A DNA stretch of 64,000 nucleotides from a virus: UHGV virus genome UHGV-0057547; one strand, 5' to 3'. Made by a program: the position numbers and the translations under genes. Shown one piece after another: positions 3,610-18,842 of the stretch. Below the pieces are notes generated by a model. The model had not been told where the DNA came from and searched no databases. It saw nothing but the letters and a program-made list of their open reading frames with translations. Positions within the stretch are counted from its first letter, which is position 1; each line of letters begins with the position of its first letter.

Positions 3610-3718
3610 TCAATCACCCACTCCTTAATTATTTATTTTATACTTATATTATACTATTGATATTATATAAAGTCAATAGAATTCATAAAAAAACTAGAGA
3701 AAATTTTCTCTAGTCATT

Positions 3719-4093
3719 TTACTTTAACAAATCTTCATTCTCATATATGTTTCCCACAACTTCAACATCACCAAAATACATATAAATATATAAACTATCT
3801 TCCCATTTCCCTTCATTTACAACACGATATTCACCATTGGTATATTTTACATATAAATTGGCTTCTCCATCGTCAAGTTTAACTTTTAATATATCACCTT
3901 CATATATTTCTTTTCCGTTTTTATCTTTTAAATTTGTATATTGCATTAATCTACAAACATATGAATACGTAGCTCTCCAACGTCTACATTCTTCATCTTC
4001 CATACCAACCTCATAATCATTTAATCCTATAAAATTAACAGTTGCCATTTCTTGTTTTTCAGTATCCCATGCTCTAAATTTAAATTCTCTCAT
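3719..4093 (-). CDS. hypothetical protein
   Basis: ORF track; start ATG 4093 (MREFKF) after GGTGATGAAT; flanked by a consensus promoter and a terminator. Confidence 0.5.
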   Translation of the reverse strand: MREFKFRAWDTEKQEMATVNFIGLNDYEVGMEDEECRRWRATYSYVCRLMQYTNLKDKNGKEIYEGDILKVKLDDGEANLYVKYTNGEYRVVNEGKWEDSLYIYMYFGDVEVVGNIYENEDLLK

Positions 4094-4105
4094 ATTCATC
4101 ACCTA

Positions 4106-4660
4106 TTAATAATTTCCTAAATCTTCTTTTAGATTTTTTATTATTTTCTCAAGAAATGCTAATTCTTTTGTTATATTTTCTCTTTCTACTTTTAATTCAC
4201 CCATTCTTTTCTTTTTACAACAAATTTCTAATCCAATTTCAGGATTAAAAATATCAGTTCTATGACATTTGGTTTTAAAAATATTGAAACTATTATCTAT
4301 CACTATTACTTCAGGATTATTTATTATCACCACTTTAGCCCATTCTCTATTCGTAATCCAAAACTTATTTAGAAAATCATAAGGACAATCATCACCTAGT
4401 TTATATATTTCCATTTTATTAATTTTTGTCATAGGTTCTAGCATGCTCTTGCTAAAGCAGTATGGATTATAATAATCATCAGAATCAAGTTTTATTATAT
4501 ATCTAATACGTTCTTCGTTTCTTGATATCCTTACGATTTCTCCTACTTTACCTAAAGTATCCTTCATGTTACTTATGAATTTACACCCATCGTCATAAAA
4601 TGTATCAACTATTAAGTCATTTTTAACTCTCACTTTATCTCCAATTTTGAATTTTTCCAT
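4106..4660 (-). CDS. hypothetical protein
   Basis: ORF track, 184 aa, tightly packed behind the upstream gene. Confidence 0.5.
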   Translation of the reverse strand: MEKFKIGDKVRVKNDLIVDTFYDDGCKFISNMKDTLGKVGEIVRISRNEERIRYIIKLDSDDYYNPYCFSKSMLEPMTKINKMEIYKLGDDCPYDFLNKFWITNREWAKVVIINNPEVIVIDNSFNIFKTKCHRTDIFNPEIGLEICCKKKRMGELKVERENITKELAFLEKIIKNLKEDLGNY

Positions 4661-4681
4661 TTTACCATCTCCTTTATTTTT

Positions 4682-5242
4682 TTAAGATAATTCTAAACAT
4701 TTATGTTTTATTTTTTTAACCGCTCTATTGAAAATTTGATTTACATTTTGTTTTGATAAATGTAATATTTTACCCATTTCCTCAAACGTATAACCAGCTA
4801 AGAACAATCTTATAATTTGTCCACTTCTTTCACTTATTAAATCAGCATATTTTATTATTTCTTTAACTAAATCTTTTTCTATAATTTTATCTTCCAAATT
4901 ATAATCATATTCTATTAATTCTAATAATGTTTTACTTTCTTCTTCATGAACAATTTTTCTATCCAAACTATCAACAGTTGCATCTCCTCTTCTTTTCATT
5001 GTATTTTTATTTTGATAAAATTTTTTACAACTCCATTTAATAGAATTTTCTATAAAAACAGATTTTCCCATTACTTCATCTAATTTATCTAGGTCTTTTA
5101 ATAGATTTAATATTATTTCTGATTTCAAATCTTCAAGACCAAAATAATTATTCTTTGCATTGTTATAATAAAACATTCTTGCATATTTATCTATCAGCAT
5201 TTCATAATCATTTATTATGTTAACCTTTAATTCATTATTCAT
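4682..5242 (-). CDS. sigma-70 family sigma factor (small ECF/TcdR-like)
   Basis: Region-2-like and C-terminal region-4 HTH (ILHLSKQNVNQIFNRAVKKI); start ATG 5242 after GGAGATGGGG; E1 structured element in the 5' leader. Confidence 0.55.
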   Translation of the reverse strand: MNNELKVNIINDYEMLIDKYARMFYYNNAKNNYFGLEDLKSEIILNLLKDLDKLDEVMGKSVFIENSIKWSCKKFYQNKNTMKRRGDATVDSLDRKIVHEEESKTLLELIEYDYNLEDKIIEKDLVKEIIKYADLISERSGQIIRLFLAGYTFEEMGKILHLSKQNVNQIFNRAVKKIKHKCLELS

Positions 5243-5294
5243 ATACCCCATCTCCATTTATAATTTTTATTTTTCTAATATGTATTCTACTATA

Positions 5295-5408
5295 GTTTCA
5301 ATGCTTACATTTAAGCTTCCCTATTCAACATATCCTCTTTCACCTAATGGCTACTTGAGTTTGTGTGATACTCCCAGGGCGTAAATTCGGGTTTGAACAT
5401 CCCTACAT
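5295..5408 (-). ncRNA. E element copy 1 (structured leader RNA, TnpB right-end / omega-RNA-like)
   Basis: ~115-nt element between the promoter (5444-5472) and the sigma gene start. Identical to copy 2 and ~80% to copies 3-6. Compensatory substitutions in two hairpins between copies. Confidence 0.5.
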
Positions 5409-5443
5409 ATTAATTTTTTATTTTTATTATCTTATTTACTTAT

Positions 5444-5472
5444 ATTATACTATTGCTATTATTAAAAGTCAA
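5444..5472 (-). promoter_or_regulatory. consensus sigma-A promoter (-35 TTGACT, 17 nt, -10 TATAAT)
   Basis: Reverse complement reads TTGACTTTTAATAATAGCAATAGTATAAT. Confidence 0.6.
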
Positions 5473-5482
5473 TAATTATTTA

Positions 5483-5509
5483 AAAAAATTAAGGAGAAAA
5501 TCTCTCCTT
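5483..5509 (-). terminator. intrinsic terminator (hairpin AAGGAGAGATTTTCTCCTT plus T-run)
   Basis: Perfect inverted repeat immediately after the stop of 5508..5756, followed by TTTTTTT on the minus strand. Confidence 0.55.
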
Positions 5510-5756
5510 AATCTTCATCAACAGTAAGTTTTGCATTAGGCATGAAAACTAAAACTAAAAACCAAAACAATCCGTTTAATCCATTGCTATCATTTAACAT
5601 AGGTGCTAGCCAATTTAACCAAGGAATACCATTGACATTTACATTAACTATGTCTAGTATCCAAATTACATAAATTGCCATCTTAACTAAACTAACTAAA
5701 GTATTAAATAAAAAACATATAAAAATATTTCTATATTTCATTCTCATCCTCTCCAA
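5508..5756 (-). CDS. small membrane protein
   Basis: ORF track; two hydrophobic segments; overlaps the upstream ORF by 26 nt, so the start is uncertain. Confidence 0.35.
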   Translation of the reverse strand: MERMRMKYRNIFICFLFNTLVSLVKMAIYVIWILDIVNVNVNGIPWLNWLAPMLNDSNGLNGLFWFLVLVFMPNAKLTVDED

Positions 5757-6120
5757 TCTCTTTTAAATAATTTCCAAACTCAATAAAAACTTTCAAATCT
5801 CTTAAAGATTCATCGATATAATTAGAAGTTTTTATACTTACTTTTTCTAAGTTTTCATTTTCACATCTTAATTTATCTATTTCATATTCAATTCTATCAT
5901 TCTTCTCATCAATTGGTTCAGAATAATATACATCAATTATATAGGGAACTTTATAATCAACTCTAATCTTCAATCCTTCTATCTTTCCATTTACAATATG
6001 ATTTTGTAAATGTTTAATAGCTTCTCTACCTATTGTAACCTTATTACAACGTTTACTATGTGTCATATTATATAATTTAATGTTAACTATTAATTCATCA
6101 TAATAACTATATTCCTTCAT
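5731..6120 (-). CDS. hypothetical protein
   Basis: ORF track, 129 aa. Confidence 0.45.
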   Translation of the reverse strand: MKEYSYYDELIVNIKLYNMTHSKRCNKVTIGREAIKHLQNHIVNGKIEGLKIRVDYKVPYIIDVYYSEPIDEKNDRIEYEIDKLRCENENLEKVSIKTSNYIDESLRDLKVFIEFGNYLKEIGEDENEI

Positions 6121-6132
6121 AATATCACCATC

Positions 6133-6918
6133 CTAATCAGCAAATTTAAAAGATACTTTCATATCAGCTTTAGTACAACTAGCTTGAGCATTATATTTTT
6201 TATTTAATAGATTATATTTTATTGTATATTTGTTACAACCTAAAACTTTACAAGCTATTAAATAATTGTCAAATACTTTATGATAACCATCATTATTAAA
6301 TACAATTACTTCTTTATCTTCTATTTTATCACTTTCATCTTCATAATCATATTCATTAATACTTAATTGTTCTTTATTGTTTATTAATTCTTTTCTTAAT
6401 TTCATTATTAATTGTTGCACTCTTTGTTTACTTATTTCCATTTTACAACCTATTTCCTCATAGTTATAACCATTCATAAGCATTATAACTATATCATATA
6501 ATCTTTTATCTTTTAAATTTTTTATATAATTTAATATTTCATTTCTATAAATACCTGTAAAATCATCTAATCTTCCAACAGTTCTATCTCTAACTTTTTC
6601 GGTATCTTCATCCATACCTTCATTTTCATGAACTTTTCTTTCTCCACCTTTTTGAACATATTTATATAAATCATTATTAACAAAACTTAACATTTTATTT
6701 CTAATTGATTTTACAGCCAAAGTACTAAATTTTCCTTTACTTTCATCATAAGTTTTAATGACATTATATAAAGTTATCATTCCAATTTGTTTTAAATCAG
6801 CATATACATCATATTCAGATACAGTTGTATAGAAAAATCTTTGTATTACCCAATCCACTAAACTTTCATTTTCTATTAACATTTTTTCTATTCTTATTTC
6901 ATTTTCAAATTTTTCCAT
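6133..6918 (-). CDS. sigma-70 family sigma factor
   Basis: Region 2 (DLKQIGMITLYNVIKTYDESKGKFSTLAVKSIRNKM) and region 4 (EISKQRVQQLIMKLRKEL) signatures. Confidence 0.65.
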   Translation of the reverse strand: MEKFENEIRIEKMLIENESLVDWVIQRFFYTTVSEYDVYADLKQIGMITLYNVIKTYDESKGKFSTLAVKSIRNKMLSFVNNDLYKYVQKGGERKVHENEGMDEDTEKVRDRTVGRLDDFTGIYRNEILNYIKNLKDKRLYDIVIMLMNGYNYEEIGCKMEISKQRVQQLIMKLRKELINNKEQLSINEYDYEDESDKIEDKEVIVFNNDGYHKVFDNYLIACKVLGCNKYTIKYNLLNKKYNAQASCTKADMKVSFKFAD

Positions 6919-7016
6919 CTTTCATATCCCCCATTCTTTATCATATAATAATTATATTACATTTTTTATCTATTGTCAACAATTATCACCAACTTTATTT
7001 TTTATTTTTTTTTACT

Positions 7017-7763
7017 TTATTCCCTCCATTCAAAATTTATTTTCTTATTTAAAGTTTTACTTTTAGCACTTTTCCTTAATCCTTGACATATTTTCCTAAT
7101 AGAGTTCTTATCAATGCCTAAATCTTCACTAGCCATTTGAAGATTATCATAATTTTTATAAAATTTTCCATCTATAAAAGCTACAACACTTCCTTTACTT
7201 TTCCTAATTTCATGTTTAATATTAAATTTTTCTTTTAAGTTTTCTTTTATAAAAAACATTTTTTTATTTATAATACGATAATTATTATTTAATATTTCAC
7301 TTATTTCTTTTCCGTTGTATCCTCTTAGCATATAGTAAAATATTATATAATAATCTCCACCTAAATTCTTTACATATTGTAAATACATTTCAATGTATAA
7401 AATTGTTTCGTCATCATAATCACCCAACATATCTTCAAGAGTTAACTTTTCATCTTCTTTAGTTTGTATATCTTCATTAAGTGATAAAATATTTTTATTA
7501 TTTATTGTATGTTTTTTATTAATATAGGTTATAATAGAATTGTAAATGCATTTACTACAATAACAAATAAAGGATTTCTCATTGTTTATATTGTCAATAG
7601 GTCTATAAGTCTTATATGCTTTTACAATAGCTATTCTACCTTCTTGTAATAAATCATCATAATCATTGCTATAAATGAAATTTGAAAAATGTCTTTTGAT
7701 ATTTGATTTAATCAGATATTCATATTTGATTACAACTTCATTTATATCAATTGCGTTCTCCAT
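7017..7763 (-). CDS. sigma-factor-like regulator
   Basis: Region-2-like DLLQEGRIAIVKAYKTY and a C-terminal HTH-like segment. Confidence 0.5.
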   Translation of the reverse strand: MENAIDINEVVIKYEYLIKSNIKRHFSNFIYSNDYDDLLQEGRIAIVKAYKTYRPIDNINNEKSFICYCSKCIYNSIITYINKKHTINNKNILSLNEDIQTKEDEKLTLEDMLGDYDDETILYIEMYLQYVKNLGGDYYIIFYYMLRGYNGKEISEILNNNYRIINKKMFFIKENLKEKFNIKHEIRKSKGSVVAFIDGKFYKNYDNLQMASEDLGIDKNSIRKICQGLRKSAKSKTLNKKINFEWRE

Positions 7764-7870
7764 TTTTCAATTCCCCCTTTATTACTTTATTTACTTATAT
7801 TATACTATCATTCTTATTAAAAGTCAATAATAAAAAAAATAAAAAAGGAGAAAATTTTCTCCTTACAAAT

Positions 7871-8185
7871 TTATAAATAAGTTATTTCTAATCCTAAATT
7901 TTTAGCTACTCCTATAATCTGATATACTTCTTCATCCCTTTCAGGAAGTACATAAACTTCATCAGCAAAGGTTAATATTTTTAATGAATAATTTATCAAC
8001 TCATCCTTATCAATGTCCTTAGAAAGCCAACCAACGGCTTTCAATGGACTTATATATAATATATGTTTCCTTCCATTCTTTAAATCATCCCTAATCAATT
8101 CTCTAATTAAGGATTCAATTGCTTTTTCTTGTCCTTCCGTATTACTACCAGTAATAAATATAACCTTATAATCATCTAACTTCAT
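7871..8185 (-). CDS. DUF4406-like (nucleoside 2-deoxyribosyltransferase-fold) protein
   Basis: IFITGS N-terminus and ADEVYVLP..LGLEI C-terminus resemble the DUF4406 pattern (CDAIYMLPGWE..LGLEI). Confidence 0.35.
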   Translation of the reverse strand: MKLDDYKVIFITGSNTEGQEKAIESLIRELIRDDLKNGRKHILYISPLKAVGWLSKDIDKDELINYSLKILTFADEVYVLPERDEEVYQIIGVAKNLGLEITYL

Positions 8186-8197
8186 TATATCATCCCC

Positions 8198-8848
8198 TTA
8201 TAAATTAGTAGTTTTGTATCTAATTAATTTCATTGCCATGTCGTCAAGTTGTTGAAATGATTCTCTTAATGTTTTAGAAAAATATTGTTCTTTACCTAAT
8301 TCCTTTTCTCCTAATTGAACAGTGCTACCACTAAAATCAGTTTCTTCAAGTTCTTCATTTTCATTTAAACAGTTTACCATTTTATTATATGAAACATCAG
8401 TCATAATTAATACTTCTTTATATTGTATTTCAAATACTAATTTCCATTTTCTTTTATCCTCAGTTCCATTTTTATTAATTTTAAGTTTTAGGTAATCACT
8501 TACTTTATCTCTTATTGGTAATATTTCTATTAAACTTCTTTCAACAGATTTTTGTATATTATTGTATGTTCTATATATATTACTATCATTTTCCATATTC
8601 CTTATTAACCATTTTTCATGAGCTTTAACATGACATACGCCAAACATTATATTAAGTGAATGGTATAGCCATTTATTTTCTTTTTTACTTTGGTTTATTA
8701 TTATTCTTATTTTTGTTTTAAAACTATTTTCTTTTGCTATTCTTCTTGTGCCTTGATTACCATGTTGTTTATATTCTTCATAACTATCTAATTTTCTATA
8801 ATCTTTTCTTTCTTTTAAATTTACATTAGTTTCTAATTCTTTTTTCAC
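8198..8848 (-). CDS. hypothetical protein
   Basis: ORF track, 216 aa. Confidence 0.45.
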   Translation of the reverse strand: MKKELETNVNLKERKDYRKLDSYEEYKQHGNQGTRRIAKENSFKTKIRIIINQSKKENKWLYHSLNIMFGVCHVKAHEKWLIRNMENDSNIYRTYNNIQKSVERSLIEILPIRDKVSDYLKLKINKNGTEDKRKWKLVFEIQYKEVLIMTDVSYNKMVNCLNENEELEETDFSGSTVQLGEKELGKEQYFSKTLRESFQQLDDMAMKLIRYKTTNL

Positions 8849-8878
8849 AATATCTTCTCCCCTTTTTATAATTTATTT

Positions 8879-9250
8879 TTATTTTTTACTTTTACCTTTT
8901 CCTTTTAATTCGGATTCTTTTTCTTTTTCAGCTTTTTTTGATTTCTTAAGTTCTTCAAAATAAGTTGGTAATATTTGTTTCATTTTTTTTCTAAATTCTT
9001 TTGCAAAATATTCTTTAATTTCTTTAACTTCTTTTTCTACCTCTTTAGGAATTTCATCACTTACATCAATTTCATTTAATATACTTAAATGCAATTTTCC
9101 AAAGTCATTATTATATCTTGCACTTTCGGCTCTAGTTTCGCTAAATCTAACTAGATATTTGTTTGTGTATTCCTCATTGAAACAATATTTATATGCATCA
9201 ACTTGTCTGTCAACAAAGTTATCTAATTTTTCTTTATCACTTTTTTTCAT
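8879..9250 (-). CDS. hypothetical lysine-rich protein
   Basis: ORF track; start ATG 9250 after GGAGAGATGATT; E2 element in its leader. Confidence 0.45.
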   Translation of the reverse strand: MKKSDKEKLDNFVDRQVDAYKYCFNEEYTNKYLVRFSETRAESARYNNDFGKLHLSILNEIDVSDEIPKEVEKEVKEIKEYFAKEFRKKMKQILPTYFEELKKSKKAEKEKESELKGKGKSKK

Positions 9251-9339
9251 AATCATCTCTCCCTTTTTATAATTTTTTATATTTATTTTAATACTTGATT
9301 GTTATATTTGTATTATTCTTCTTCTTAGCTTATCGGTTT

Positions 9340-9454
9340 GTTTCAATGCTTACATTTAAGCTTCCCTATTCAACATATCCTCTTTCACCTAATGGCTACT
9401 TGAGTTTGTGTGATACTCCCAGGGCGTAAATTCGGGTTTGAACATCCCTACATA
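9340..9454 (-). ncRNA. E element copy 2
   Basis: Identical to copy 1; sits between promoter 9476-9530 and gene 8879..9250. Confidence 0.5.
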
Positions 9455-9672
9455 TTAATTTTTTATTTTTATTATCTTATTTACTTATATTATACTATTG
9501 CTATTATTAAAAGTCAAGTATTATTTTTATCTTATTTATTCGTCTACTTAGTTTCATGTTTGTTTTAGCATATGTTACATTTGTACGTAATCCATTTTTT
9601 AAATATAGAAGACTACTATCATGTTTCAGTGCTTGTTACACTTGTATGGAAAGACTACTAAAAAGACAATGG

Positions 9673-9788
9673 AGTTTCAGTGCTTTGACAAGCTTCCCTG
9701 TTCATCGTGTTCTTTTTCACTTTATATAAGCTACTCAAGTTTTTATAACACTCCAAGGGCGTAAATTCGGAACTGAACTTTCCTACAT
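9673..9788 (-). ncRNA. E element copy 3, directly 3' of tnpB (candidate right-end / omega-RNA scaffold)
   Basis: Begins ~45 nt after the tnpB stop, following a hairpin ACCGAATA..TATTCGGT, in the same orientation as tnpB. Its terminal ACAAGCACTGAAAC is duplicated 37 nt further on. Confidence 0.5.
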
Positions 9789-9832
9789 ACCGAATATATC
9801 TTGTTGGTGATTATTATTCGGTTTTATTATAT

Positions 9833-10999
9833 TTAATATTGTGCTAAGTTTATAGAGGCATTTAAGTCTCTATCCATTGTGTGTCCACATTCAGGACAAG
9901 TAAAAGTTCTATCTTTCAATTTTAATCTTTCTTTTCCTATTCTTATATATCCACATTTACTACAAGTTTGTGAACTAGGATACCATCTGTCAGCTACTAC
10001 TAATTCAATTCCATAGTCATCACATTTATAAGTTAATTGATTTTTGATTTCATTAAATCCTTGTTGCCCTATTGATTTACTTAGATGTTTATTTTTCATC
10101 ATCCCTTTTACGTTTAAATTTTCAATAACTACTCTTTGTGGTTTCTTTTCTACTATTTGATGTGTCATTGTATGTCTATAATTATTTCTTATACCTGCAA
10201 TTCTATGTTGTAATTTAAGTATTTGTTTTTCTAATTTTATTATATTATTAGTCTTATGATATTTCTTTCCTTGTCTATTCATTTCATATTTTCTACTCAC
10301 TTGTCGTTGCATACGTTTTAATTTCTTTTCTAATTTTCTAACATGAGCAGTTTTATTAATGTTTTTATATACTGTGCCATCACTACATATTGCTAAATCT
10401 TTTATTCCTAAGTCTATTCCTAATGATGTTGGATTTAATTCAGGTTTTTCTTTTATTTCTCTTAAGCCTACACTAATGCTCCAATATATCCCATTGTATG
10501 TGACTCTAGGATTTACATATTTAATTTTAGGATACATTTCGCTTTCTTCATAAGGTATATAACCTTTTCTAGCTAATTTGATTGTTCCTATCTTAGATAT
10601 TTTTACTGTATCTTCAGTGATTTTTATACGTTGATAATGTGGTGCAAAAGCTGGAGTTGTTTTATTTCTACTTTTAAATTTAGGATAACCAACATCAGGT
10701 CTTTTGAAAAAATTTTTAAAAGCATTACAACTATCTGTATATGCAATTACTAGTGCCATTGAATCACAATCTTTAAGCCATTCATTACCTTCTTGATTTT
10801 TGTAAGCAGTGAAATATTTGCTTAATCCTTTTGATGGTATAAACTTTTCTTTTTTAGGAATACTTTCATCTTCATATCTACTTTTTTGAAATGCTAAACA
10901 CCAATTATATACATGTCTTGCACATCCTGCTTGAAAGAACATTTGTTTTTCTTGTTGTTTTGTTGGATATAACCTAACTTTGAAAGTTCTAATCTCCAT
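9833..10999 (-). CDS. tnpB: TnpB (IS200/IS605-family RNA-guided RuvC-like nuclease), no adjacent TnpA
   Basis: RuvC-I IGIDLGIKDLAICSDG, RuvC-II VVIENLNVKGMMKN, zinc finger CSKCG..CPECGHTMDRDLNASINL; start ATG 10999 (MEIRTFKV) after GGGGGAATTGAAA. Confidence 0.85.
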   Translation of the reverse strand: MEIRTFKVRLYPTKQQEKQMFFQAGCARHVYNWCLAFQKSRYEDESIPKKEKFIPSKGLSKYFTAYKNQEGNEWLKDCDSMALVIAYTDSCNAFKNFFKRPDVGYPKFKSRNKTTPAFAPHYQRIKITEDTVKISKIGTIKLARKGYIPYEESEMYPKIKYVNPRVTYNGIYWSISVGLREIKEKPELNPTSLGIDLGIKDLAICSDGTVYKNINKTAHVRKLEKKLKRMQRQVSRKYEMNRQGKKYHKTNNIIKLEKQILKLQHRIAGIRNNYRHTMTHQIVEKKPQRVVIENLNVKGMMKNKHLSKSIGQQGFNEIKNQLTYKCDDYGIELVVADRWYPSSQTCSKCGYIRIGKERLKLKDRTFTCPECGHTMDRDLNASINLAQY

Positions 11000-11032
11000 T
11001 TTCAATTCCCCCATTTATCTTTATTTACTTAT

Positions 11033-11061
11033 ATTATACTATCGTCCTTATTAAAAGTCAA
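11033..11061 (-). promoter_or_regulatory. consensus promoter driving tnpB
   Basis: Reverse complement TTGACTTTTAATAAGGACGATAGTATAAT with 17-nt spacing. Confidence 0.6.
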
Positions 11062-11071
11062 TAAATTTTGA

Positions 11072-11100
11072 AAAAAACTGAGAAGAAAAATTTTCTTCTC
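11072..11100 (-). terminator. intrinsic terminator (GAGAAGAAAATTTTTCTTCTC plus T-run)
   Basis: Perfect hairpin followed by CAGTTTTTTT on the minus strand, right after the stop of 11100..11390. Confidence 0.55.
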
Positions 11101-11390
11101 TATATTAAATCATATAGTTCTATACATATTCTAGAAAGTAAATTATCTATTTCTATCAAATTGTCGGTACAAACAACATCCGTGTATTTCATTAAATTGG
11201 TAAGTGCATTTAAAACTCCTTTAATTTCTTCTTTTGATTTAAAATTTATTATTCCATTTTTAACTCTATTGTATAAAAATAATAAATAATATTCATCATC
11301 ACTCTTGAATCCTTTACCATACTTATTTAATGTTTTCTTTATGGCATCCTCTAGCATTTCACTTTCAACTAAGTTTAAATTATATTTCAT
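11100..11390 (-). CDS. hypothetical protein
   Basis: ORF track, 96 aa. Confidence 0.45.
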   Translation of the reverse strand: MKYNLNLVESEMLEDAIKKTLNKYGKGFKSDDEYYLLFLYNRVKNGIINFKSKEEIKGVLNALTNLMKYTDVVCTDNLIEIDNLLSRICIELYDLI

Positions 11391-11514
11391 AATTCCCCAA
11401 CTCCTTTTTATTTTTTTATTTTATTTACTTATATTGTACTATTACTTTTATTAAATGTCAAGTATTTTTGAAAAAAACTGAGAAGAAATTTTTCTTCTCT
11501 AAATTAAGTATTTA

Positions 11515-11799
11515 TTAAAATGTCTTAATTAAGAATACTATCATTATTACTACTCCTATGCCCCCTAAAATTGCTCCCATTTTACTAAATTTAATTTGTT
11601 CTTCCATTGCCATTATTAATCTTTCTTTGTCCTCTTGTACTGTAAATCCATCTTTTCTCATTTCCTCTATAAGCGTATCTATATTGGCTGAGTATTCATT
11701 GTAATATGCTCTATCTCTAATGTAATTTAGAATAGGTAAAAAAGCTAAACAAATACCAAATACTTCTAATGCTCTACTTATTAATAATGATAAATTCAT
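11515..11799 (-). CDS. small membrane protein (two TM segments)
   Basis: ORF track; hydrophobic N- and C-terminal segments. Confidence 0.45.
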   Translation of the reverse strand: MNLSLLISRALEVFGICLAFLPILNYIRDRAYYNEYSANIDTLIEEMRKDGFTVQEDKERLIMAMEEQIKFSKMGAILGGIGVVIMIVFLIKTF

Positions 11800-11940
11800 A
11801 AAATACCTCCAATTTAAAGTCCTTAAGACTATTTATTTTTTTTATTTTGTTTTTTTATATTTATTATACTATTATTATATCATGTAGTTTATGTTATGTC
11901 AAGCATTTTTGAAAAAACTGAGAAGAAAATTTTTCTTCTC

Positions 11941-12537
11941 TTATAAACTTAGATTTAATAAATTAACTTGTTCTATTATTTCTTTATTATCAGATAAAAA
12001 AACTTTTTTTCTTCTATCGTACAATACTACATGACTACCACATTTCTTGCAACTAGCACCTTTGAAGGCTTGCTTTTTGCTTTCTGTCAATTTACTAACA
12101 GTTCCTATTATTCCATCTTTTGGACAGATTACAAAATATTTATCATTTCTTTCTTCATATTTCAATTTTACTTTCAGACTATCAGATATTTCTAAATACT
12201 TACAAACTTCTTTCCATCTATCATCATGATTACAATTATCATCGTGTAATTCATTAGCTATATAATGTGCTAATTCATGTTTTAATACGTATTCAAGTTT
12301 TTCATTTGTTGCATTTCTAAAAAATGATTTAGATATTTGCATGTCACAAGGGACTATTTTTTTAGAGTTTCTTGTAAGATAAAATCTATAACAAGCAACT
12401 TTCTTTTTAAATCTTCCATTAAGATTTATATCTTTTTCAAATAATGGTATTTCATTTCCTGTTTTCTTATTAAACATTTCTATGTTTTCATTTAAAAATA
12501 CTCTTACTTCATTAACATTTTTTATTCTTCTTTCCAT
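11941..12537 (-). CDS. SprT-like zinc metalloprotease with C-terminal zinc ribbon
   Basis: HELAHYIANELH HExxH motif plus CKKCGSHVVL. Confidence 0.55.
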   Translation of the reverse strand: MERRIKNVNEVRVFLNENIEMFNKKTGNEIPLFEKDINLNGRFKKKVACYRFYLTRNSKKIVPCDMQISKSFFRNATNEKLEYVLKHELAHYIANELHDDNCNHDDRWKEVCKYLEISDSLKVKLKYEERNDKYFVICPKDGIIGTVSKLTESKKQAFKGASCKKCGSHVVLYDRRKKVFLSDNKEIIEQVNLLNLSL

Positions 12538-12650
12538 TCTTCATTCCCCCTAAAATATTTTTATTATTTATTTCTTTTATACTTATATTATATACTAGAT
12601 TTTATCTATTGTCAAGTATTTTTGTAAAAACTGAGAAGAAAAAATCTTCT

Positions 12651-13238
12651 CTATTCAACTTCAACTTCTATTTTTTTAAAAAAATCTATCATTTCTTTTT
12701 CGTATTTATTGAAAAGTCTGACTGCTTTTTTATCTGCTATTTTTTCACATTCGATATTCCTATAGTGTTCCATTTGCATCTCACCAATTAACCAAGTATT
12801 TATTTCATATTCCTTTTCACATTCAAAATATAATTTATTATATCCATGTTTATCAAGCGACCTATTTAGTGTTATCATATGCCCTATTTCATGTAATATA
12901 GAAACCATGCAATAAACTTGAAAAAAATTCATTTCATATTTTTTCATTATGTAATTGTAATTAAAACCATAATGCTTTAAATAATCCACAAAATATTCAT
13001 GCTGTCTAATTATACTTTCTCTTTCGGTATAAACATTTTCAGGAACATATAACAAACTATATCTATCAACTTTTTCTTGTCCTCCACATGCAAAAGATTT
13101 TTTTGAATATTTTTGTATGCAATAAGGTATTCCTTTTTTCAATTCTTTTTTCTCTATAAAAAAATCAAATATTGAATTCATAAAATCTTCTGTGATGTCA
13201 ATATATTTTCTTTTTATTAAATCACTTTTAAGTTTCAT
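12651..13238 (-). CDS. HExxH metallopeptidase-like protein
   Basis: ILHEIGHMITL motif. Confidence 0.45.
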   Translation of the reverse strand: MKLKSDLIKRKYIDITEDFMNSIFDFFIEKKELKKGIPYCIQKYSKKSFACGGQEKVDRYSLLYVPENVYTERESIIRQHEYFVDYLKHYGFNYNYIMKKYEMNFFQVYCMVSILHEIGHMITLNRSLDKHGYNKLYFECEKEYEINTWLIGEMQMEHYRNIECEKIADKKAVRLFNKYEKEMIDFFKKIEVEVE

Positions 13239-13384
13239 TTTTTATTTCCCCCTTTATACTATATATTATATATTAAGTTTTATATATTGTCAATCACTTT
13301 TGAAAAAAACTGAGAAGAAAAAATTCTTCTCTTTTAAAAAAAATTTTCTTTAATAAAATCTTTTATTTCAATTAGAATTACTCC

Positions 13385-13498
13385 GTTTCAATACTTGTTA
13401 TCAAGCTTCCCTATTCAACGTATCCTCTTCCCCTCTTATGAGGTACTCAAGTTTATATGATACTCCAAGGGCGTAAATTCGGAACTGAACTTTCCTAT
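13385..13498 (-). ncRNA. E element copy 4 (stand-alone unit: promoter, element, terminator)
   Basis: Preceded by promoter 13500-13560 and followed by a GAGAAGAATTTTTTCTTCTC terminator before the next promoter. Confidence 0.5.
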
Positions 13499-13657
13499 TT
13501 ATTTCTTATTTACTTATATTATACTATTTTTACTGTTGAATGTCAAGTATTATTTTTAAAAACTGGGAAGAAAAATTTTCTTCCCTTGATTGTTTTCGCA
13601 CAAAAGTAGGCTACGTCAGCACAAAAGTGGGCGACCCTATATTTTATTCCAATTTAA

Positions 13658-14236
13658 TTATTCCAATTTTTTAATCATATAGTGCGTAATTTTTCTTTTT
13701 CCTTTTTTCTTTCTTTTTAAATCATATCCATGCTCTTTTAATATTTTTTCTAAAGTGGGTAAACCTATTAATCTATTTCTGTTATCCCTAAGGTTATTTT
13801 TAATAATTATATCATTAAAAATAATATCTCTAGTAATCCATTTATTAAGTAGATTATCTTCAATGGAAAGGTCAATTTTTATATGTTTATGTTTTCTATG
13901 AATAACACTAAGATGACAATGTATACATAATGTTTTATAAGTATAAAACAAGTGTTTTCCTAATACTTTTTCTTCTATGTTTTTCAACTCTAATTTTGTA
14001 TAATTATCTATTGTTTTATATTCTTCTAGTCCTAACTCAATTAAAGTATCTTTTACCATATTAGCAAATGGATAAATGTGATGAACTTGTAAATCTTCAA
14101 TTCCACCGCATTGTTCACATTTATTCTTTTTAACTAACTTTACAAACTTATACCAAACTTTTATCCTTATATAATTGTTTAATGTTTGTTTTCTTTTTTC
14201 ATTATTTAACATTCCTTTTTTAATTATAATATTCAC
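13658..14236 (-). CDS. HNH endonuclease
   Basis: CEQCGG..LQVHHIYPF..CIHCH HNH/zinc motif. Confidence 0.6.
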   Translation of the reverse strand: MNIIIKKGMLNNEKRKQTLNNYIRIKVWYKFVKLVKKNKCEQCGGIEDLQVHHIYPFANMVKDTLIELGLEEYKTIDNYTKLELKNIEEKVLGKHLFYTYKTLCIHCHLSVIHRKHKHIKIDLSIEDNLLNKWITRDIIFNDIIIKNNLRDNRNRLIGLPTLEKILKEHGYDLKRKKKGKRKITHYMIKKLE

Positions 14237-14239
14237 CTT

Positions 14240-15307
14240 TTATTTTTTATTATAAATATACATTTTGTAGAAATTATCCCAAATTTGATAGTATTCTTCA
14301 GAATATTGAAGTTGTCTTAATCTACTTTCTTTCATAAGTATAGCATATTCAACATTAAATCCATTTCTAGATTTTATTTTTTCATCAATAGTTTTTTTAT
14401 TTTTATTTTGTCTTTTTAGTGCCAAAGATTTTCTAATTTCATATATATCATTTTTAATTATATCCACATCAAAACCATTTAAATAGTTCTTCTTAATATA
14501 TTCTATATCTTTAGTTAGAAAAATTTGAAATGCTTCATAAGTATATTTATATCCTAATTCACAAGTCAATTCAAAACTTAATTCTTTATCAAAGTCTTTT
14601 AATTTTTGAATATTACATTTTATATTTTCCTTTCTGTTGCCATATACTAAATCATTTCTACTTGTAATACTATATTTCTCACATATTCTATTTTCAATAT
14701 CTATTACTTTTCTTAATTGTATAGAATTTGTATTAAGATACACTTCATTATTTTCTAAGTCTACTGCAATTTTCACTTTATACCATTTTATTAAATTATC
14801 TTTTTTTTCAAGTTTATTTAAAGCAGATAAAAAATTTGAATATAAGGCAGAATTTTCAACAGAGAAAAAATCTTTTTTAACTATATCTTTATCGTTTAAA
14901 ATAGGATATTGATAATTAATATTCTTTTTTTCATTTGGATAAAATATTTCTACTAGAGCCATACTAGTTAGCCAATTGTCAAATGTTTTTACACAATATG
15001 TTTCATCTTTAAAATTGCAATAACCTATAATAGAATTTAATAAAGCTTGTTTCATTAAAAAACTCATACTCTTTTCATCCTCCTTAATATCATATACTTT
15101 CCTTTTGGAACTATCAAATTCTATCCCATTGCTCCCCATAAGAGTATAATATACTCTACTTCCTATTTTATTTTTTTCCACTGCACATACTTTGGAAAGT
15201 TTATTGATTAAAGTTTTTTCTTTTTTTCTAAAATTACTATAACTGTAGTCACAAAGTTCACAAAGTTCTTTTGATGTATAAGTCCCATCTTGTAATATTA
15301 CTTCCAT
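14240..15307 (-). CDS. hypothetical protein
   Basis: ORF track, 355 aa; start after GGAGTTGATGAT. Confidence 0.5.
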   Translation of the reverse strand: MEVILQDGTYTSKELCELCDYSYSNFRKKEKTLINKLSKVCAVEKNKIGSRVYYTLMGSNGIEFDSSKRKVYDIKEDEKSMSFLMKQALLNSIIGYCNFKDETYCVKTFDNWLTSMALVEIFYPNEKKNINYQYPILNDKDIVKKDFFSVENSALYSNFLSALNKLEKKDNLIKWYKVKIAVDLENNEVYLNTNSIQLRKVIDIENRICEKYSITSRNDLVYGNRKENIKCNIQKLKDFDKELSFELTCELGYKYTYEAFQIFLTKDIEYIKKNYLNGFDVDIIKNDIYEIRKSLALKRQNKNKKTIDEKIKSRNGFNVEYAILMKESRLRQLQYSEEYYQIWDNFYKMYIYNKK

Positions 15308-15489
15308 ATCATCAACTCCTTTTGTCCCCCAAACAGTTCTCTATATATATTATATTATATATTATATTATAGAACTGTTTGGGGGACATTATTTTTATAT
15401 ATTTATATATATTATACTATAAATTTTATTAAAAGTCAATAATAAAAATAAAAAAAAGAAAGGCTATTTAAACCTTTCTTTTATATGAA

Positions 15490-16065
15490 TTAAACATTAA
15501 ACATTAAATCACCTAAGCATAAAAGAAAATCTTTTTCTAATTCCCAGTTATCCCATATTAAAACATCATATTCATTTTTTGTATGTCCTTCATATCCTTT
15601 TTCACAATATAACCAAGTTATTAATTCACCATCGGCTTCTCTGTAAGTTGCTCTATGTGCCACTACTGTTTCTAAATAATTTGTATCATGTAAAAAATCT
15701 TCATTTTTTAAATCTTCTTCTGTTAATTTGTCTTTTGCTATTTTTAAAACAAATATATCATTACAGTTTTCTATATCTTCATCTTTATAACCTAAAGTCA
15801 CTGTTGCTTCATAATTATCATCCAATTCTTCTATATCTACATTAATCTTATCTATATCTTTAGCAGAATCTAAATATAATTTTTTATTATCATTTAATTC
15901 ATTATATTGTGGCTGATATTCTTCAATGTTTCTTTCGATTTCATTTATTATATTTTCTTTTAACAATTTTTCACCTTGTTCTATTTGGTTATTAGAACAT
16001 CCTATCATAGATATGGCCATTAGACCTCCTAAAATCAATCCTAAGCCCTTTCTAAATACTTTCAT
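15490..16065 (-). CDS. lipoprotein
   Basis: Signal peptide with lipobox MISMIGC. Confidence 0.55.
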   Translation of the reverse strand: MKVFRKGLGLILGGLMAISMIGCSNNQIEQGEKLLKENIINEIERNIEEYQPQYNELNDNKKLYLDSAKDIDKINVDIEELDDNYEATVTLGYKDEDIENCNDIFVLKIAKDKLTEEDLKNEDFLHDTNYLETVVAHRATYREADGELITWLYCEKGYEGHTKNEYDVLIWDNWELEKDFLLCLGDLMFNV

Positions 16066-16158
16066 GAATAATTCCTCCTTTAACCTTTAAAATTCATTTA
16101 AATCAATTATATCCCATTATAGGACAGAATATACAACTGAGGATATTAAATATCCTCT

Positions 16159-16314
16159 TTATTTGTTTTTATCAGGTAGACAAACTATAACTAATAGTGC
16201 GAAAAATCCAAAGAAAAATCCTAATAATAACCAAGCTACAGTACTTCTACCTTTTTCAGTAGCAATAAGACAACATCCAATTGCAAATAAAATACTCCAA
16301 ATTAATATAGCCAT
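16159..16314 (-). CDS. small membrane protein (51 aa)
   Basis: Unlisted ORF MAILIWSILFAIGCCLIATEKGRSTVAWLLLGFFFGFFALLVIVCLPDKNK, RBS AAAAGGAG. Confidence 0.4.
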   Translation of the reverse strand: MAILIWSILFAIGCCLIATEKGRSTVAWLLLGFFFGFFALLVIVCLPDKNK

Positions 16315-16380
16315 AATTTCAACTCCTTTTTAAATTTTATATTTTGTTATCAACTGAGGATATTAAATATCCTCTTTAAT

Positions 16381-16971
16381 TTAATATGTTATTAAATCCA
16401 ATTCTTCCATTTCGTTTAATAAGTCATAATCGCATACATCTTTATAATAGCCATTTTCATATTTAAATAAATTTATCTCATCGCTTAAAGCATTTACTTC
16501 TACATAATATATTTCATCATTTAATTCAACTTCTACTGATTTAGAACATTCTAAGAATAATTCTAAAAATTCTTCTTCATAATTAAATTTCAAATACATC
16601 CATTCAGAATATCCAACTCTTACATCTCCACGTCCACAATGAACTCTAAATCCAACTATATATTCATCTTCTTTAGTATCATAATAAGTTCTAAAATCAA
16701 TATGATTAATTAATGGTGCATTCCAGTTATAAGTATTATCGGCAGTTATTTCTTCTATCCAACCTTCATCAAGTCCTATTTCTAAATAATCATCAATATA
16801 ATATTCATAATCAGTTTCTTCTTCTTTATCCCATATAATACCATTAATAACTTCATAAGGTTCTAAAACATTTAATATATCCATTATATCAACTGTCAAT
16901 TCATTTTCTTTTATATTATAAGTTCCTTCTAAGCATTTTTTTACATCTTCTATTTTTGTTCTTCCAAACAT
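16381..16971 (-). CDS. hypothetical acidic protein
   Basis: ORF track; start ATG 16971 after GGAGGTTTAT. Confidence 0.5.
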   Translation of the reverse strand: MFGRTKIEDVKKCLEGTYNIKENELTVDIMDILNVLEPYEVINGIIWDKEEETDYEYYIDDYLEIGLDEGWIEEITADNTYNWNAPLINHIDFRTYYDTKEDEYIVGFRVHCGRGDVRVGYSEWMYLKFNYEEEFLELFLECSKSVEVELNDEIYYVEVNALSDEINLFKYENGYYKDVCDYDLLNEMEELDLITY

Positions 16972-17220
16972 ATAAACCTCCAAGTTTAAAGTCCTAAAGA
17001 CTATTTATTTTTTTATTTATACTTATATTATATAGTATAATTTATATCATGTCAACTATTTTTAAAAAAATATTTTAAATTTTTTATTTTGTTTTTATTG
17101 ATTGTTAATAACTGAGAACATTAAATATCCTCTTTATACTATATATTATATATTAGTTTATATGATATGTCAATATAATATTAAAAAAATATAGAGAAAA
17201 AATCTCTATATTTTTTATAT

Positions 17221-18602: not shown

Positions 18603-18623
18603 CTTTTGGGTGATAACTGAGGA

Positions 18624-18839: not shown

Positions 18840-18842
18840 TAG

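What the first reader, a model, noticed from the sequence alone, without database searches (positions are those of the whole stretch)
9833..10999. Two TnpB genes with intact RuvC motifs, no TnpA and no recognisable IS ends, each under the island's standard promoter
TnpB1 (9833..10999, minus) and TnpB2 (39744..40874, plus) keep the D/E/D RuvC triad and zinc finger. Neither has an adjacent Y1 transposase, left-end hairpin or flanking duplication. Both are fitted with the same TTGACTTTTAAT-N11-TATAAT promoter used by the surrounding early genes. This looks like domestication of TnpB by the phage-like element rather than passive IS insertion, comparable in principle to TldR / Fanzor-like repurposing.
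Basis: partly seen in the sequence, partly recalled or inferred. Interest (0 to 1): 0.7.

Follow-up and report, generated by a model that had tools for sequence, protein, structure and literature searches.

The report
Phage TnpB nuclease with six guide RNAs
A roughly 204-kb human-gut phage carries an intact TnpB nuclease plus six guide-RNA genes, five scattered under early promoters, whose guides match TTA-flanked genes of sibling phages, which suggests an RNA-guided weapon or gene drive between phages; the second TnpB is an ordinary mobile element.

Summary
Both genes are real and intact: HTH, OrfB and TNB domains, the RuvC D/E/D triad and two CxxC pairs. No TnpA is in the window.

TnpB1 (9833..10999, -) belongs to the RAGATH-18 reRNA class. 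The window holds six 111-113-nt scaffolds, all on the minus strand. One is cis to tnpB1. Five are stand-alone, each behind its own early promoter and each ending ...TGAAAC followed by a different guide.

Sibling phages carry or lack these cassettes site by site. Homology breaks at the scaffold/guide junction at three of the window's four comparable stand-alone sites. Seven of eight guides with an allelic target lie next to 5'-TTA in a sibling (P about 3e-9).

Closer and more distant TnpB1 relatives carry CRISPR-like 37-nt repeat arrays with an anti-repeat in the scaffold (TranC-like). Their spacers hit sibling phages at 5'-TTTA.

Most likely, TnpB1 is a resident, early-expressed, multi-guide nuclease for conflict or homing between phages.

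TnpB2 (39744..40874, +) is a separate 1352-bp IS607-like element without TnpA. It has GG-type ends and is precisely absent from two siblings. A 93% copy sits at another site. The "standard promoter" belongs to the gene it interrupted. All function is inferred.

The parts
9833..10999 (-). tnpB1 CDS (388 aa from the SD-preceded ATG; the ORF extends to 11014). RuvC D201/E298/DRD381-383 and CxxC at 351 and 373, in 393-aa numbering.
   Evidence: best solved relative is 8IAZ (ISFba1 TnpB), E=4e-68
11033..11061 (-). Early promoter of tnpB1: TTGACTTTTAATAAGGACGATAGTATAAT
9674..9785 (-). cis reRNA scaffold (contains RAGATH-18 at 9694-9759), 47 nt after the tnpB1 stop codon. It ends ...GCACTGAAAC. The guide starts at 9673 (TCCATTGTCTTTTTAGTAGT).
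9551..9647 (-). Two degenerate copies of the 37-nt array repeat seen in sibling L001 (9647..9623 and 9586..9551). Read as a decayed mini-array.
   Evidence: (no window hit at 10 or fewer mismatches)
9320..9517 (-). Stand-alone cassette R9362: promoter 9517..9489, scaffold 9450..9340, guide from 9339 (AAACCGATAAGCTAAGAAGA). Promoter and scaffold are identical to R5317.
5275..5472 (-). Stand-alone cassette R5317: promoter 5472..5444, scaffold 5405..5295, guide from 5294 (TATAGTAGAATACATATTAG). The guide is the 3' end of a gene that is longer in siblings.
13365..13546 (-). Stand-alone cassette R13407: promoter 13546..13518, scaffold 13497..13385, guide from 13384 (GGAGTAATTCTAATTGAAAT). The guide lies inside a small membrane-protein ORF of siblings. 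The match is perfect with ATTA in contig _152729.
18823..18987 (-). Stand-alone cassette R18865: promoter 18987..18959, scaffold 18953..18843 starting 5 nt after the -10 box, guide from 18842 (CTATTGACAGTAGAAGCAAA). The guide equals codons 3-9 of a sibling gene, preceded there by GTTA.
23123..23317 (-). Stand-alone cassette R23164: promoter 23317..23289, scaffold 23253..23143, guide from 23142 (GCTATGAAGTTTCACCCTGA). The guide covers the HPD-motif region of a J-domain gene that is intact in three siblings (ATTA or ACTA flank).
16440..16467 (-). Protospacer in this phage matched by the stand-alone guide of siblings _166499 and _152729 (one mismatch, at position 19), with TTTA 5' of it.
3990..4017 (-). 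Protospacer in this phage matched by a stand-alone guide of sibling _159628 (mismatches at positions 1 and 17), with ATTA 5' of it.
39653..41004 (+). TnpB2 element (1352 bp): left end AGATAACAG..., tnpB2 CDS 39744-40874, divergent reRNA about 40892-41004 ending ...AAGTAACGG. The 7 nt GGAGATA are shared by both junctions.
41005..41024 (+). TnpB2 guide (AGATAGATATGAACGAATTT). It equals the empty site of sibling L073. It spans the start codon of the SNIPE/T5orf172 gene (41013-42155).
39596..39652 (+). Promoter (TTTACTTTTAAT-N11-TATAAT, 39596-39624) and Shine-Dalgarno/TAM (AAAGGGG, ending at 39652) of the interrupted gene. Both are present unchanged in the empty alleles.

Best explanation
There are two unrelated things here.

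(1) TnpB1 is the nuclease of a resident, early-expressed RNA-guided DNA-targeting system of a roughly 204-kb human-gut phage. It is co-transcribed with one cis reRNA. The genome also encodes five stand-alone, single-guide-like reRNAs, each made from its own early promoter and each ending in a different 20-nt-class guide.

Inferred mechanism: TnpB1 loads these RNAs in trans and cuts DNA that carries 5'-TTA/TTTA followed by the guide match. Such sites exist in the equivalent early genes of co-infecting sibling phages. The phage's own copy is safe because the scaffold has replaced the TAM side of the gene (...GAAAC instead of ...TTA).

Cleavage would either destroy the rival or be repaired from the cassette-bearing genome. 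Homology for repair would be the shared promoter on the left and the gene remainder on the right. That copies the cassette into the rival, which is homing or marker exclusion.

The same nuclease clade has elsewhere split the reRNA into a tracr-like scaffold plus a mini-array (TranC-like). The window keeps only decayed repeats of such an array.

(2) TnpB2 is a TnpA-less IS607-type element with its own reRNA. It inserted at the GGGG of a Shine-Dalgarno sequence, between the SD and the ATG of a SNIPE/T5orf172 gene. Its fixed guide matches the empty site, which is classical transposon-type homing logic.

Shown: the anatomy, the RNA conservation, the polymorphism, the TAM-flanked targets and the element boundaries. 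Inferred: trans loading, cleavage and the biological role.
For: RNA genes. There are six RAGATH-18 hits at 57-68 bits against a gathering score of 44.9. The scaffolds align over 111-113 nt and diverge exactly after TGAAAC. Five are preceded by a consensus promoter.

Structure. Across 30 distinct copies, 95.7% of cells are paired. Twenty of 24 pairs show compensatory change, and 0 of 500 shuffles reach the observed values. The hairpin-1 loop (GUUCAR) is complementary to the 3' tag (YUGAAAC). It co-varies with the second repeat family (GUUUAA with UUAAAAC).

Nuclease. TnpB1 is intact and is closest to ISFba1 TnpB, an experimentally shown RAGATH-18-guided nuclease (PMC11061315).

Targets. At three of the window's four comparable stand-alone sites, and at the sibling cassette opposite window 16464, window/sibling homology breaks at the scaffold/guide junction. 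At R23164 it stops about 57 nt further on, but the aligned guide matches the sibling J-domain gene. Of 13 distinct stand-alone guides in five siblings, eight have allelic targets, and seven of those are flanked by TTA in at least one sibling (P about 3e-9). Targeting is reciprocal: this window is hit by sibling guides at 16463..16440 and 4013..3990. Escape-like variants exist, such as TTA changed to ATA or CTA and single mismatches.

Clade context. About 24 relatives at 56-93% identity carry arrays of 2-8 repeats of 37 nt. A 28-nt anti-repeat in the scaffold was shown for L001. Their spacers hit sibling phages with TTTA in 18 of 26 flanks. Matches in a phage's own genome carry mismatches at positions 2 and 5.

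Residency. TnpB1 has the same neighbours in all 24 contigs read.

TnpB2. It is absent at the same site in L073 and L075 and present in L074. The junctions share GGAGATA. The right end ...AACGG is conserved in L031 and L004b, after which the sequences diverge. The guide is identical to the L073 empty site, which is preceded by AGGGG. A 93% copy sits after TAGGGG(G) of the SprT-like gene's SD in L112.
Against: There is no experimental or expression data. Trans use of stand-alone reRNAs by TnpB1 is inferred.

Two window guides have no identifiable target: the cis guide and R9362. One guide (R5317) has allelic matches without TTA.

Most sibling targets carry one mismatch, and ISFba1 TnpB is reported to be mismatch-sensitive (PMC11061315). 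Present-day siblings may therefore mostly be escapers.

Two siblings (_159628 and _160472) keep 3-6 scaffolds but lack tnpB1 at its locus. So the cassettes can persist without the nuclease.

The scaffold here is shorter (about 112 nt) than the 187-nt ISFba1 reRNA.

How a cassette comes to lie next to a new TTA site is unexplained.

TnpB2's reRNA is weak (27 bits against my model and below the Rfam threshold). It may be decaying.
Confidence: 0.68

Rival explanations
1. The stand-alone scaffolds are non-autonomous IS607/IS605-type derivatives: solo right ends or MITE-like elements. A transposase supplied in trans would have scattered them. They would have no function for the phage, and the guide would simply be whatever flanks the insertion. 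Insertion next to TTA would then reflect transposase target choice.
For: TAM-adjacent insertion is exactly what TnpB-family transposons produce (PMC13565253). In public data, 36% of RAGATH-18 RNAs are not next to a TnpB (PMC11061315). Siblings without tnpB1 still carry cassettes. TnpB2 in the same genome shows that such elements do move.
Against: No transposase is in the window. The left side is never a simple insertion. The TAM and the 5' part of the target gene are replaced, and the left junction lies in the phage's own promoter. Each copy is placed to be transcribed; in R18865 the scaffold starts 5 nt after the -10 box. The scaffolds are under strong structural constraint with many compensatory changes. 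Own alleles and rival alleles differ in the seed or TAM in the pattern expected of selection by cleavage.
Confidence: 0.17
2. The scaffolds are cis-regulatory 5'-leader RNAs of early genes, for example processing, stability or translation elements. They would be only historically related to TnpB guides.
For: Several stand-alone copies lie in the sense orientation between a promoter and the next gene's RBS with no terminator visible between them. Examples are R9362 before the 125-aa ORF and R5317 before 4682-5257.
Against: The RNA family has a demonstrated role as a TnpB guide scaffold (PMC11061315). The conserved 3' tag, the pseudoknot and the TTA-flanked allelic targets have no explanation under this model. 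R13407 is followed by a gene remnant and an inverted repeat plus a T-run that reads as a terminator, not by a gene (sequence read directly in the alignment).
Confidence: 0.05
3. Both TnpBs are passive, decaying IS remnants, and tnpB1 is simply a not-yet-inactivated pseudogene-to-be.
For: No TnpA is present. The mini-array next to tnpB1 is degenerate. tnpB1 is deleted in two siblings.
Against: The catalytic and zinc motifs are intact. The exact protein recurs on 27 contigs and its 90% cluster has 152 members. It has a dedicated early promoter. The nearest relatives have intact arrays with targets.
Confidence: 0.07

Closest known systems
IS607-type TnpB guided by RAGATH-18-derived reRNA (ISFba1 TnpB, PDB 8IAZ; Ren et al. 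2024, PMC11061315)
   Same: The protein has the same size and domain order. 8IAZ is the best solved relative (E=4e-68). The reRNA lies entirely downstream of the CDS and contains RAGATH-18. The guide follows the scaffold's 3' end. TnpB2 also shares the G-rich TAM and the ...GG end.
   Different: The TAM inferred for the TnpB1 clade is TTA/TTTA, not AGGAG or GAGGG. The four base-reading residues of ISFba1 (K80, K83, N121, N122) align to M86, V89, H126 and Y127 in TnpB1. The scaffold is about 112 nt rather than 187 nt. There is no TnpA. There are six guide RNAs instead of one, five of them unlinked and promoter-driven.
TranC, the transposon-CRISPR intermediates (Jin et al. 2025, known here only through bioRxiv 10.64898/2026.03.27.714800 and PMC13565253; includes CauTranC9 from a Caudoviricetes genome)
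   Same: TnpB-sized nucleases that use several guides. Relatives of TnpB1 at 56-93% identity have 37-nt repeat arrays without cas1/cas2 nearby in the loci read. L001 has an anti-repeat in the scaffold. Their spacers target phages.
   Different: The window has no functional array, only two decayed repeats. Its scaffolds have a closed terminal hairpin, like a natural single-guide RNA. Multiplexing is achieved by dispersed complete reRNA genes. I could not read the original TranC paper. Whether this clade is one of its numbered clades is therefore untested. LaTranC (9JFO) matches only the RuvC half.
Free-standing homing endonucleases of large lytic phages (T4 Seg/Mob; intronless homing and localized marker exclusion)
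   Same: Early-expressed nuclease. The targets are the equivalent loci of co-infecting relatives. Self and non-self are told apart by small sequence differences at the site. The predicted outcome is co-conversion of flanking markers (PMC13565253).
   Different: Recognition is by RNA guides plus a 3-4-nt TAM, so one protein serves many sites. The mobile unit would be the guide cassette, not the nuclease gene.
Phage- and virus-borne CRISPR mini-arrays used in conflicts between viruses (review PMC11656645)
   Same: Short guide sets carried by viruses that target close relatives. Some carriers lack the effector gene.
   Different: Here each guide unit is a full scaffold-plus-guide gene with its own promoter, and the effector is a 388-aa TnpB.
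TldR (nuclease-dead TnpB-like repressors in phages)
   Same: A TnpB homologue kept by a phage together with a dedicated guide RNA.
   Different: The RuvC triad is intact in both proteins here. The targets are sibling-phage genes, not host promoters.

Membership tests
IS607-type TnpB / RAGATH-18 reRNA system (Ren et al. 2024) | TnpB of 330-433 aa with a RuvC D/E/D triad and a zinc finger | tested here: met
   (both proteins)
IS607-type TnpB / RAGATH-18 reRNA system (Ren et al. 2024) | RAGATH-18-containing RNA immediately 3' of tnpB, outside the CDS | tested here: met
   TnpB1: Rfam RF03064 at 9694-9759, 68.4 bits against a gathering score of 44.9. TnpB2: only 27 bits against my own model and below the Rfam threshold, but homologous to the L031 and L004b scaffolds. 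It is therefore met for TnpB1 and inconclusive for TnpB2.
IS607-type TnpB / RAGATH-18 reRNA system (Ren et al. 2024) | TAM 5'-AGGAG or 5'-GAGGG | tested here: not met
   TnpB1 clade: TTTA in 18 of 26 protospacer flanks, and TTA at 7 of 8 stand-alone-guide targets. The TAM-reading residues differ. TnpB2: AGGGG or GGGGG at two independent insertion sites, so it is close to the family TAM.
IS607-type TnpB / RAGATH-18 reRNA system (Ren et al. 2024) | Serine-recombinase TnpA in the element (reported for 80% of loci) | tested here: not met
   No resolvase among the 53 ORFs of 110 aa or more. The immediate neighbours have no such domain.
IS607 insertion sequence (as a mobile element) | Discrete ends terminating in GG, insertion at or after GG, no TIR or TSD, and presence/absence polymorphism | tested here: met
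   TnpB2 only. TnpB1 does not meet it. It has the same context in 24 contigs, and its indel is bounded by duplicated promoters.
TranC (TnpB-CRISPR intermediate) | Repeat-spacer array next to the nuclease gene | tested here: not met
   The window has no repeat within 10 mismatches of either 37-nt repeat family. Only two decayed copies remain at 9647..9623 and 9586..9551. It is met in L001-L019, L036/37, L042 and L067.
TranC (TnpB-CRISPR intermediate) | tracr-like RNA with an anti-repeat complementary to the array repeat | tested here: not met
   The window scaffolds close the terminal hairpin in cis (GCTT-loop-AAGC). L001's scaffold has a 28-nt anti-repeat that is 89-96% complementary to its repeats.
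   There is no Y1_Tnp domain. The reRNA starts after the stop codon. The best relatives are of IS607 type.
TldR (nuclease-dead TnpB-like repressor) | Loss of RuvC catalytic residues | tested here: not met
   The triad is intact in both proteins.
Homing endonuclease / gene-drive behaviour | Cleavage of the cassette-free allele and copying of the cassette during co-infection | not testable with these tools
   Only the footprint is seen: site-by-site presence or absence among five siblings, with TAM-flanked targets.

The most novel reading that the evidence does not exclude
The five dispersed promoter-plus-reRNA cassettes would be a natural, array-free way of multiplexing a TnpB. They would be complete single-guide RNA genes that act in trans with one nuclease. 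They would also behave as non-autonomous RNA-guided gene drives among co-infecting jumbo phages: each cassette overwrites the TTA-flanked 5' part of a rival's early gene, using promoter homology for repair. Siblings that keep the cassettes but have lost tnpB1 could even exploit a rival's TnpB1 against that rival. Together with the tracr/array versions in 93%-identical relatives, this would show the steps from single-guide TnpB to multi-guide immunity, all in one phage lineage.
Probability: 0.35. Interest if true: 0.9.

Novelty: new variant of a known kind. Interest (0 to 1): 0.74.

Why it matters
TnpB is normally described as a one-guide nuclease tied to its own transposon end. Multi-guide capacity is thought to have arrived with CRISPR arrays, through TranC and Cas12.

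Here one lineage of gut jumbo phages shows three states side by side with nearly the same protein: a cis single guide, a tracr-like scaffold plus mini-array, and dispersed stand-alone guide genes under early promoters.

The targets are visible. They are TTA-flanked alleles of sibling phages, with reciprocal hits and escape-like variants. The hypothesis that RNA-guided nucleases drive marker exclusion or homing between phages therefore becomes directly testable with defined guides and targets.

It also offers a compact (388 aa, about 112-nt scaffold) nuclease with a short AT-rich TAM. The case further shows that the G-rich TAM of IS607-type elements coincides with Shine-Dalgarno sequences, which explains insertion between the SD and the start codon.

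Tried and rejected
1. A megablast of the TnpB1 locus against GenBank phages found nothing. Protein-level hits showed roughly 50%-identical 'transposases' in Staphylococcus Twort-like phages. I did not examine those further.

2. I looked for self-targets of the six window guides inside the window and found none beyond the scaffold-adjacent copies.

3. I searched IMG/VR for the cis guide and the R9362 guide. The cis guide gave one 18-nt match with an ATTT flank in an unrelated contig, judged to be chance. The R9362 guide gave none.

4. I tested whether TnpB2 shares the TnpB1-type scaffold. It gives only a weak match and has a different 3' end (...AACGG against ...TGAAAC) and a different TAM. The two systems therefore look orthogonal.

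5. I considered a TAM of AGGAG for TnpB1, taken from the literature. The protospacer flanks and the TAM-reading residues reject it.

6. I considered that the repeated '...AGCACTGAAAC' after the cis scaffold is a working mini-array in the window. I rejected this. The repeats are truncated or diverged, and the window scaffold lacks the anti-repeat.

7. There are no tRNAs in the window, and the host was not identified.

8. The original TranC paper is not in the library, so clade assignment could not be checked.

9. I did not run structure prediction or the large protein-database searches. A solved close relative (8IAZ) already answers the fold question.
Full report
**1. What is at the coordinates.**

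The two ORFs exist. TnpB1 is 9833..11014 on the minus strand. TnpB2 is 39744..40874 on the plus strand, 376 aa.

Both carry HTH_OrfB_IS605, OrfB_IS605 and Cas12f1-like_TNB. They are 44% identical to each other.

The best solved relative of TnpB1 is 8IAZ (E=4e-68). 8IAZ is ISFba1 TnpB, an IS607-type nuclease guided by a RAGATH-18-derived RNA (PMC11061315).

The catalytic motifs are intact:
- TnpB1: GIDLG (D201), VIENL (E298), DRD (381-383), CxxC at 351 and 373.
- TnpB2: D183, E280, DRD 360-362, CxxC at 333 and 352.

None of the 53 ORFs of 110 aa or more has a resolvase or Y1-transposase domain.

The window is 23% G+C. Positions 479..29220 form a minus-strand early region with 33 near-consensus TTGAC-N17-TATAAT promoters. 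The exact TnpB1 and TnpB2 proteins occur on human-gut metagenome contigs of about 204.4-204.7 kb. The element is therefore a large phage.

**2.

Rfam finds six RAGATH-18 RNAs, all on the minus strand, at 57-68 bits against a gathering score of 44.9. Aligned, they are 111-113-nt scaffolds at 5405..5295, 9450..9340, 9785..9674, 13497..13385, 18953..18843 and 23253..23143. Each runs from TAGGRA... to ...GCAYTGAAAC. After that point the six sequences are unrelated.

One scaffold lies 47 nt after the tnpB1 stop codon and is the cis copy. The other five each follow their own early promoter. In R18865 the scaffold begins 5 nt after the -10 box. R5317 and R9362 are identical through promoter and scaffold.

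A covariance model built from the six copies finds no further strong copy in the window. It gives a weak hit (27 bits) immediately 3' of tnpB2.

Across 30 distinct copies from this phage and its relatives, 95.7% of cells are paired. Twenty of 24 pairs show compensatory changes, and no shuffle or slid control comes close.

The loop of the first hairpin (GUUCAR) is complementary to the 3' tag (YUGAAAC) next to the guide. In the second repeat family the two sides change together (GUUUAA with UUAAAAC). This indicates a pseudoknot next to the guide, as in other TnpB and Cas12 RNAs.

**3. Relatives.**

IMG/VR holds 72 loci encoding TnpB1 relatives. Most have one cis scaffold.

About 24 of them, at 56-93% identity, also carry arrays of 2-8 repeats of 37 nt with a period of about 73 nt. 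The repeats fall into two families. The order is tnpB-scaffold-array in most loci and scaffold-array-tnpB in L002-L008.

In L001 (93% identical TnpB, a 147-kb contig) the scaffold's 3' end is a 28-nt anti-repeat, 89-96% complementary to the repeats. The repeat's 3' end equals the scaffold's 3' tag. That is a tracrRNA/crRNA split of the reRNA, the arrangement described for TranC systems. I know TranC only second-hand, through bioRxiv 10.64898/2026.03.27.714800 and PMC13565253.

Ten of the 77 unique array spacers have protospacers in the small sample of related phage DNA I held. The 5' flank is TTTA in 18 of 26 cases (P about 1e-26). Where a phage's own genome carries the homologous site, it differs at positions 2 and 5, while rivals match perfectly.

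The window itself has no intact repeat. Only two decayed copies remain, at 9647..9623 and 9586..9551. Its scaffolds close the terminal hairpin in cis.

**4. The stand-alone cassettes are polymorphic and point at sibling phages.**

Five sibling genomes at 87-98% nucleotide identity could be compared: IMG/VR contigs _166499, _152729, _159628, _160472 and _163643.

Occupancy differs site by site:
- R23164 is found only in the window.
- R18865 and R13407 are in the window and in _159628.
- A cassette at the position equivalent to window 16464 is in _166499 and _152729.
- Further cassettes occur in _159628 and _160472.
- No cassette occurs in the region held for _163643.

At R13407, at R18865 and at the sibling cassette opposite window 16464, homology to the cassette-free sibling stops exactly at the scaffold/guide junction. 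At R23164 the pairwise match stops about 57 nt beyond the junction, because the gene remnant there is rearranged, but the aligned guide still matches the sibling gene.

In the sibling, the guide sequence lies inside an intact gene. R18865 corresponds to codons 3-9 of a gene. R13407 lies inside a 42-codon membrane-protein ORF. R23164 covers the HPD-motif region of a J-domain gene.

In the cassette-bearing genome, the promoter is followed directly by the scaffold. The gene's 5' part, including the flank next to the target, is gone.

Pooling 13 distinct stand-alone guides, eight have allelic targets. In seven of those the target is preceded by TTA in at least one sibling (GTTA, ATTA or TTTA) (P about 3e-9). 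This matches the TTTA of the arrays.

Some alleles carry TTA changed to ATA or CTA, or single mismatches. Those are what escape from cleavage would look like.

Targeting is reciprocal. This window carries TTTA- and ATTA-flanked matches to sibling guides at 16463..16440 and 4013..3990.

In _166499 an intact copy of the targeted gene sits upstream of the cassette. In that copy the target is broken by a 6-nt deletion.

**5. TnpB1 is resident but dispensable.**

The exact protein has the same neighbours in all 24 contigs read.

In _159628 and _160472, however, the block tnpB1 + cis scaffold + decayed repeats is missing. The breakpoints lie in the duplicated early promoter. Both phages still keep three to six scaffolds.

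The TAM-reading residues of ISFba1 (K80, K83, N121, N122; PMC11061315) align to M86, V89, H126 and Y127 in TnpB1. This fits a different TAM.

**6. TnpB2 is a different story.**

Window 39653..41004 (1352 bp) is absent from L073 (_152729) and L075 (_166499) at exactly this place. It is present in L074 (_159628).
- Empty site: ...CAAAGGGGAGATAGATATGAAC...
- Filled site: ...CAAAGGGG|AGATAACAG...tnpB2...AAGTAACGG|AGATAGATATGAAC...

The 7 nt GGAGATA are common to both junctions.

The scaffold end ...AAGTAACGG is conserved in the 69%-identical relatives L031 and L004b. The sequences diverge after it. The guide is therefore AGATAGATATGAACGAATTT. It is identical to the L073 empty site, where it is preceded by AGGGG.

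The features are those of IS607: ends in GG, insertion at GG, no TIR or TSD, and a G-rich TAM (PMC13565253, PMC11061315).

A 93%-identical copy sits in _160472 at another site, after the TAGGGG(G) Shine-Dalgarno of the SprT-like gene (window equivalent 12547). In both cases the element lies between a gene's SD and its ATG, and the ...ACGG end partly rebuilds the SD.

The 'standard promoter' upstream of tnpB2 reads TTTAC, not TTGAC, and lies at 39596-39624. It is unchanged in the empty alleles, so it belongs to the interrupted SNIPE/T5orf172 gene.

**7. Mechanism proposed.**

Shown: an intact nuclease of a family with demonstrated RNA-guided cleavage; six structurally constrained guide-RNA genes placed for early transcription; TTA/TTTA-flanked targets in siblings; loss of the TAM side at the phage's own loci; and polymorphism at single-cassette resolution.

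Inferred:
- TnpB1 binds the stand-alone RNAs in trans and cuts sibling genomes during co-infection.
- Repair from the cassette-bearing genome spreads the cassette. Homology would be the promoter on the left and the gene remainder on the right.
- Otherwise the rival is simply damaged.

How a scaffold first becomes joined to a new TTA-adjacent sequence is unresolved.

**8. Comparison and novelty.**

RAGATH-18-guided TnpBs, TnpB homing, TranC arrays and virus-borne mini-arrays against relatives are all known. I found no description of dispersed, individually promoted, complete reRNA genes serving one TnpB in a phage. Nor did I find one of reciprocal TTA-flanked allelic targeting among sibling jumbo phages. 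The library lacks the original TranC paper, so this is not proof of absence.

I rate the TnpB1 system as a new variant of a known kind. TnpB2 is an ordinary member of a known kind.

Noticed in passing
L001:11230-11712 (IMGVR_UViG_3300045988_166499); also L002-L019, L036/37, L042, L067: TnpB1 relatives at 56-93% identity carry arrays of 2-8 repeats of 37 nt. In L001 a 28-nt anti-repeat is built into the reRNA scaffold. This is a tracr/crRNA split (TranC-like) next to a 390-aa TnpB, with spacers against sibling phages at TTTA.
   Followed up: yes
L113:9040-9640 and L112 (contigs _159628, _160472): These sibling phages have lost tnpB1, with breakpoints in the duplicated promoter, yet keep 3-6 promoter-driven scaffolds. 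These are orphan guide RNAs without their nuclease at the locus.
   Followed up: partly
window:41013-42155 (+): The gene interrupted by the TnpB2 element encodes a SNIPE (DUF4041) plus T5orf172/GIY-YIG-like protein. This architecture is listed as a nuclease-type defence protein, here encoded by a phage.
   Followed up: no
window:62049-62170 and 63722-63843 (+): A perfect 122-nt direct repeat flanks an HNH-endonuclease ORF (62286-63203). It is 77% similar to sequences in three other viral contigs (L039-L041). It may be an intron or homing-element boundary, or a structured RNA. It gives no Rfam hit.
   Followed up: partly
window:33638-34684 (+): An ORF with a weak IS1595/ISXO2-like DDE transposase domain and an N-terminal zinc ribbon. 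It is unrelated to either TnpB.
   Followed up: no
window:28896-29220 (-): Four tandem promoter-like units (TTGACATTGAATAAAAGA...TACAAT), about 100 nt apart, each followed by a similar short leader (…AGCAACTTAGGAA…). They could be repeated small transcription units or sRNA genes.
   Followed up: no
window:523-2297 (-): Two adjacent ORFs with tyrosine-recombinase features (MrpR/Phage_int_SAM N-terminal domains; a Phage_integrase hit was also seen in the ORF set). This is unexpected in the early region of a large lytic-looking phage.
   Followed up: no
window:44201-46543 (-): A 780-aa gene lies in a local G+C peak (34% against 23%) and has internal DNA repeats. Its repeat segments also match each other across sibling contigs.
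   Followed up: no
window:23040-23142 (-) compared with L080/L082:9180-9720: The J-domain (HPD) gene that is intact in three siblings is destroyed in this phage. The scaffold replaces its 5' end, and a further deletion of about 300 nt removes most of the remainder.
   Followed up: partly
GenBank phages: Staphylococcus Twort-like phages (Twort, phiIBB-SEP1, Romulus, Remus and others) encode roughly 50%-identical TnpBs annotated as 'transposase', some with 2-4 matching places per genome. Whether they also carry stand-alone reRNAs was not checked.
   Followed up: no
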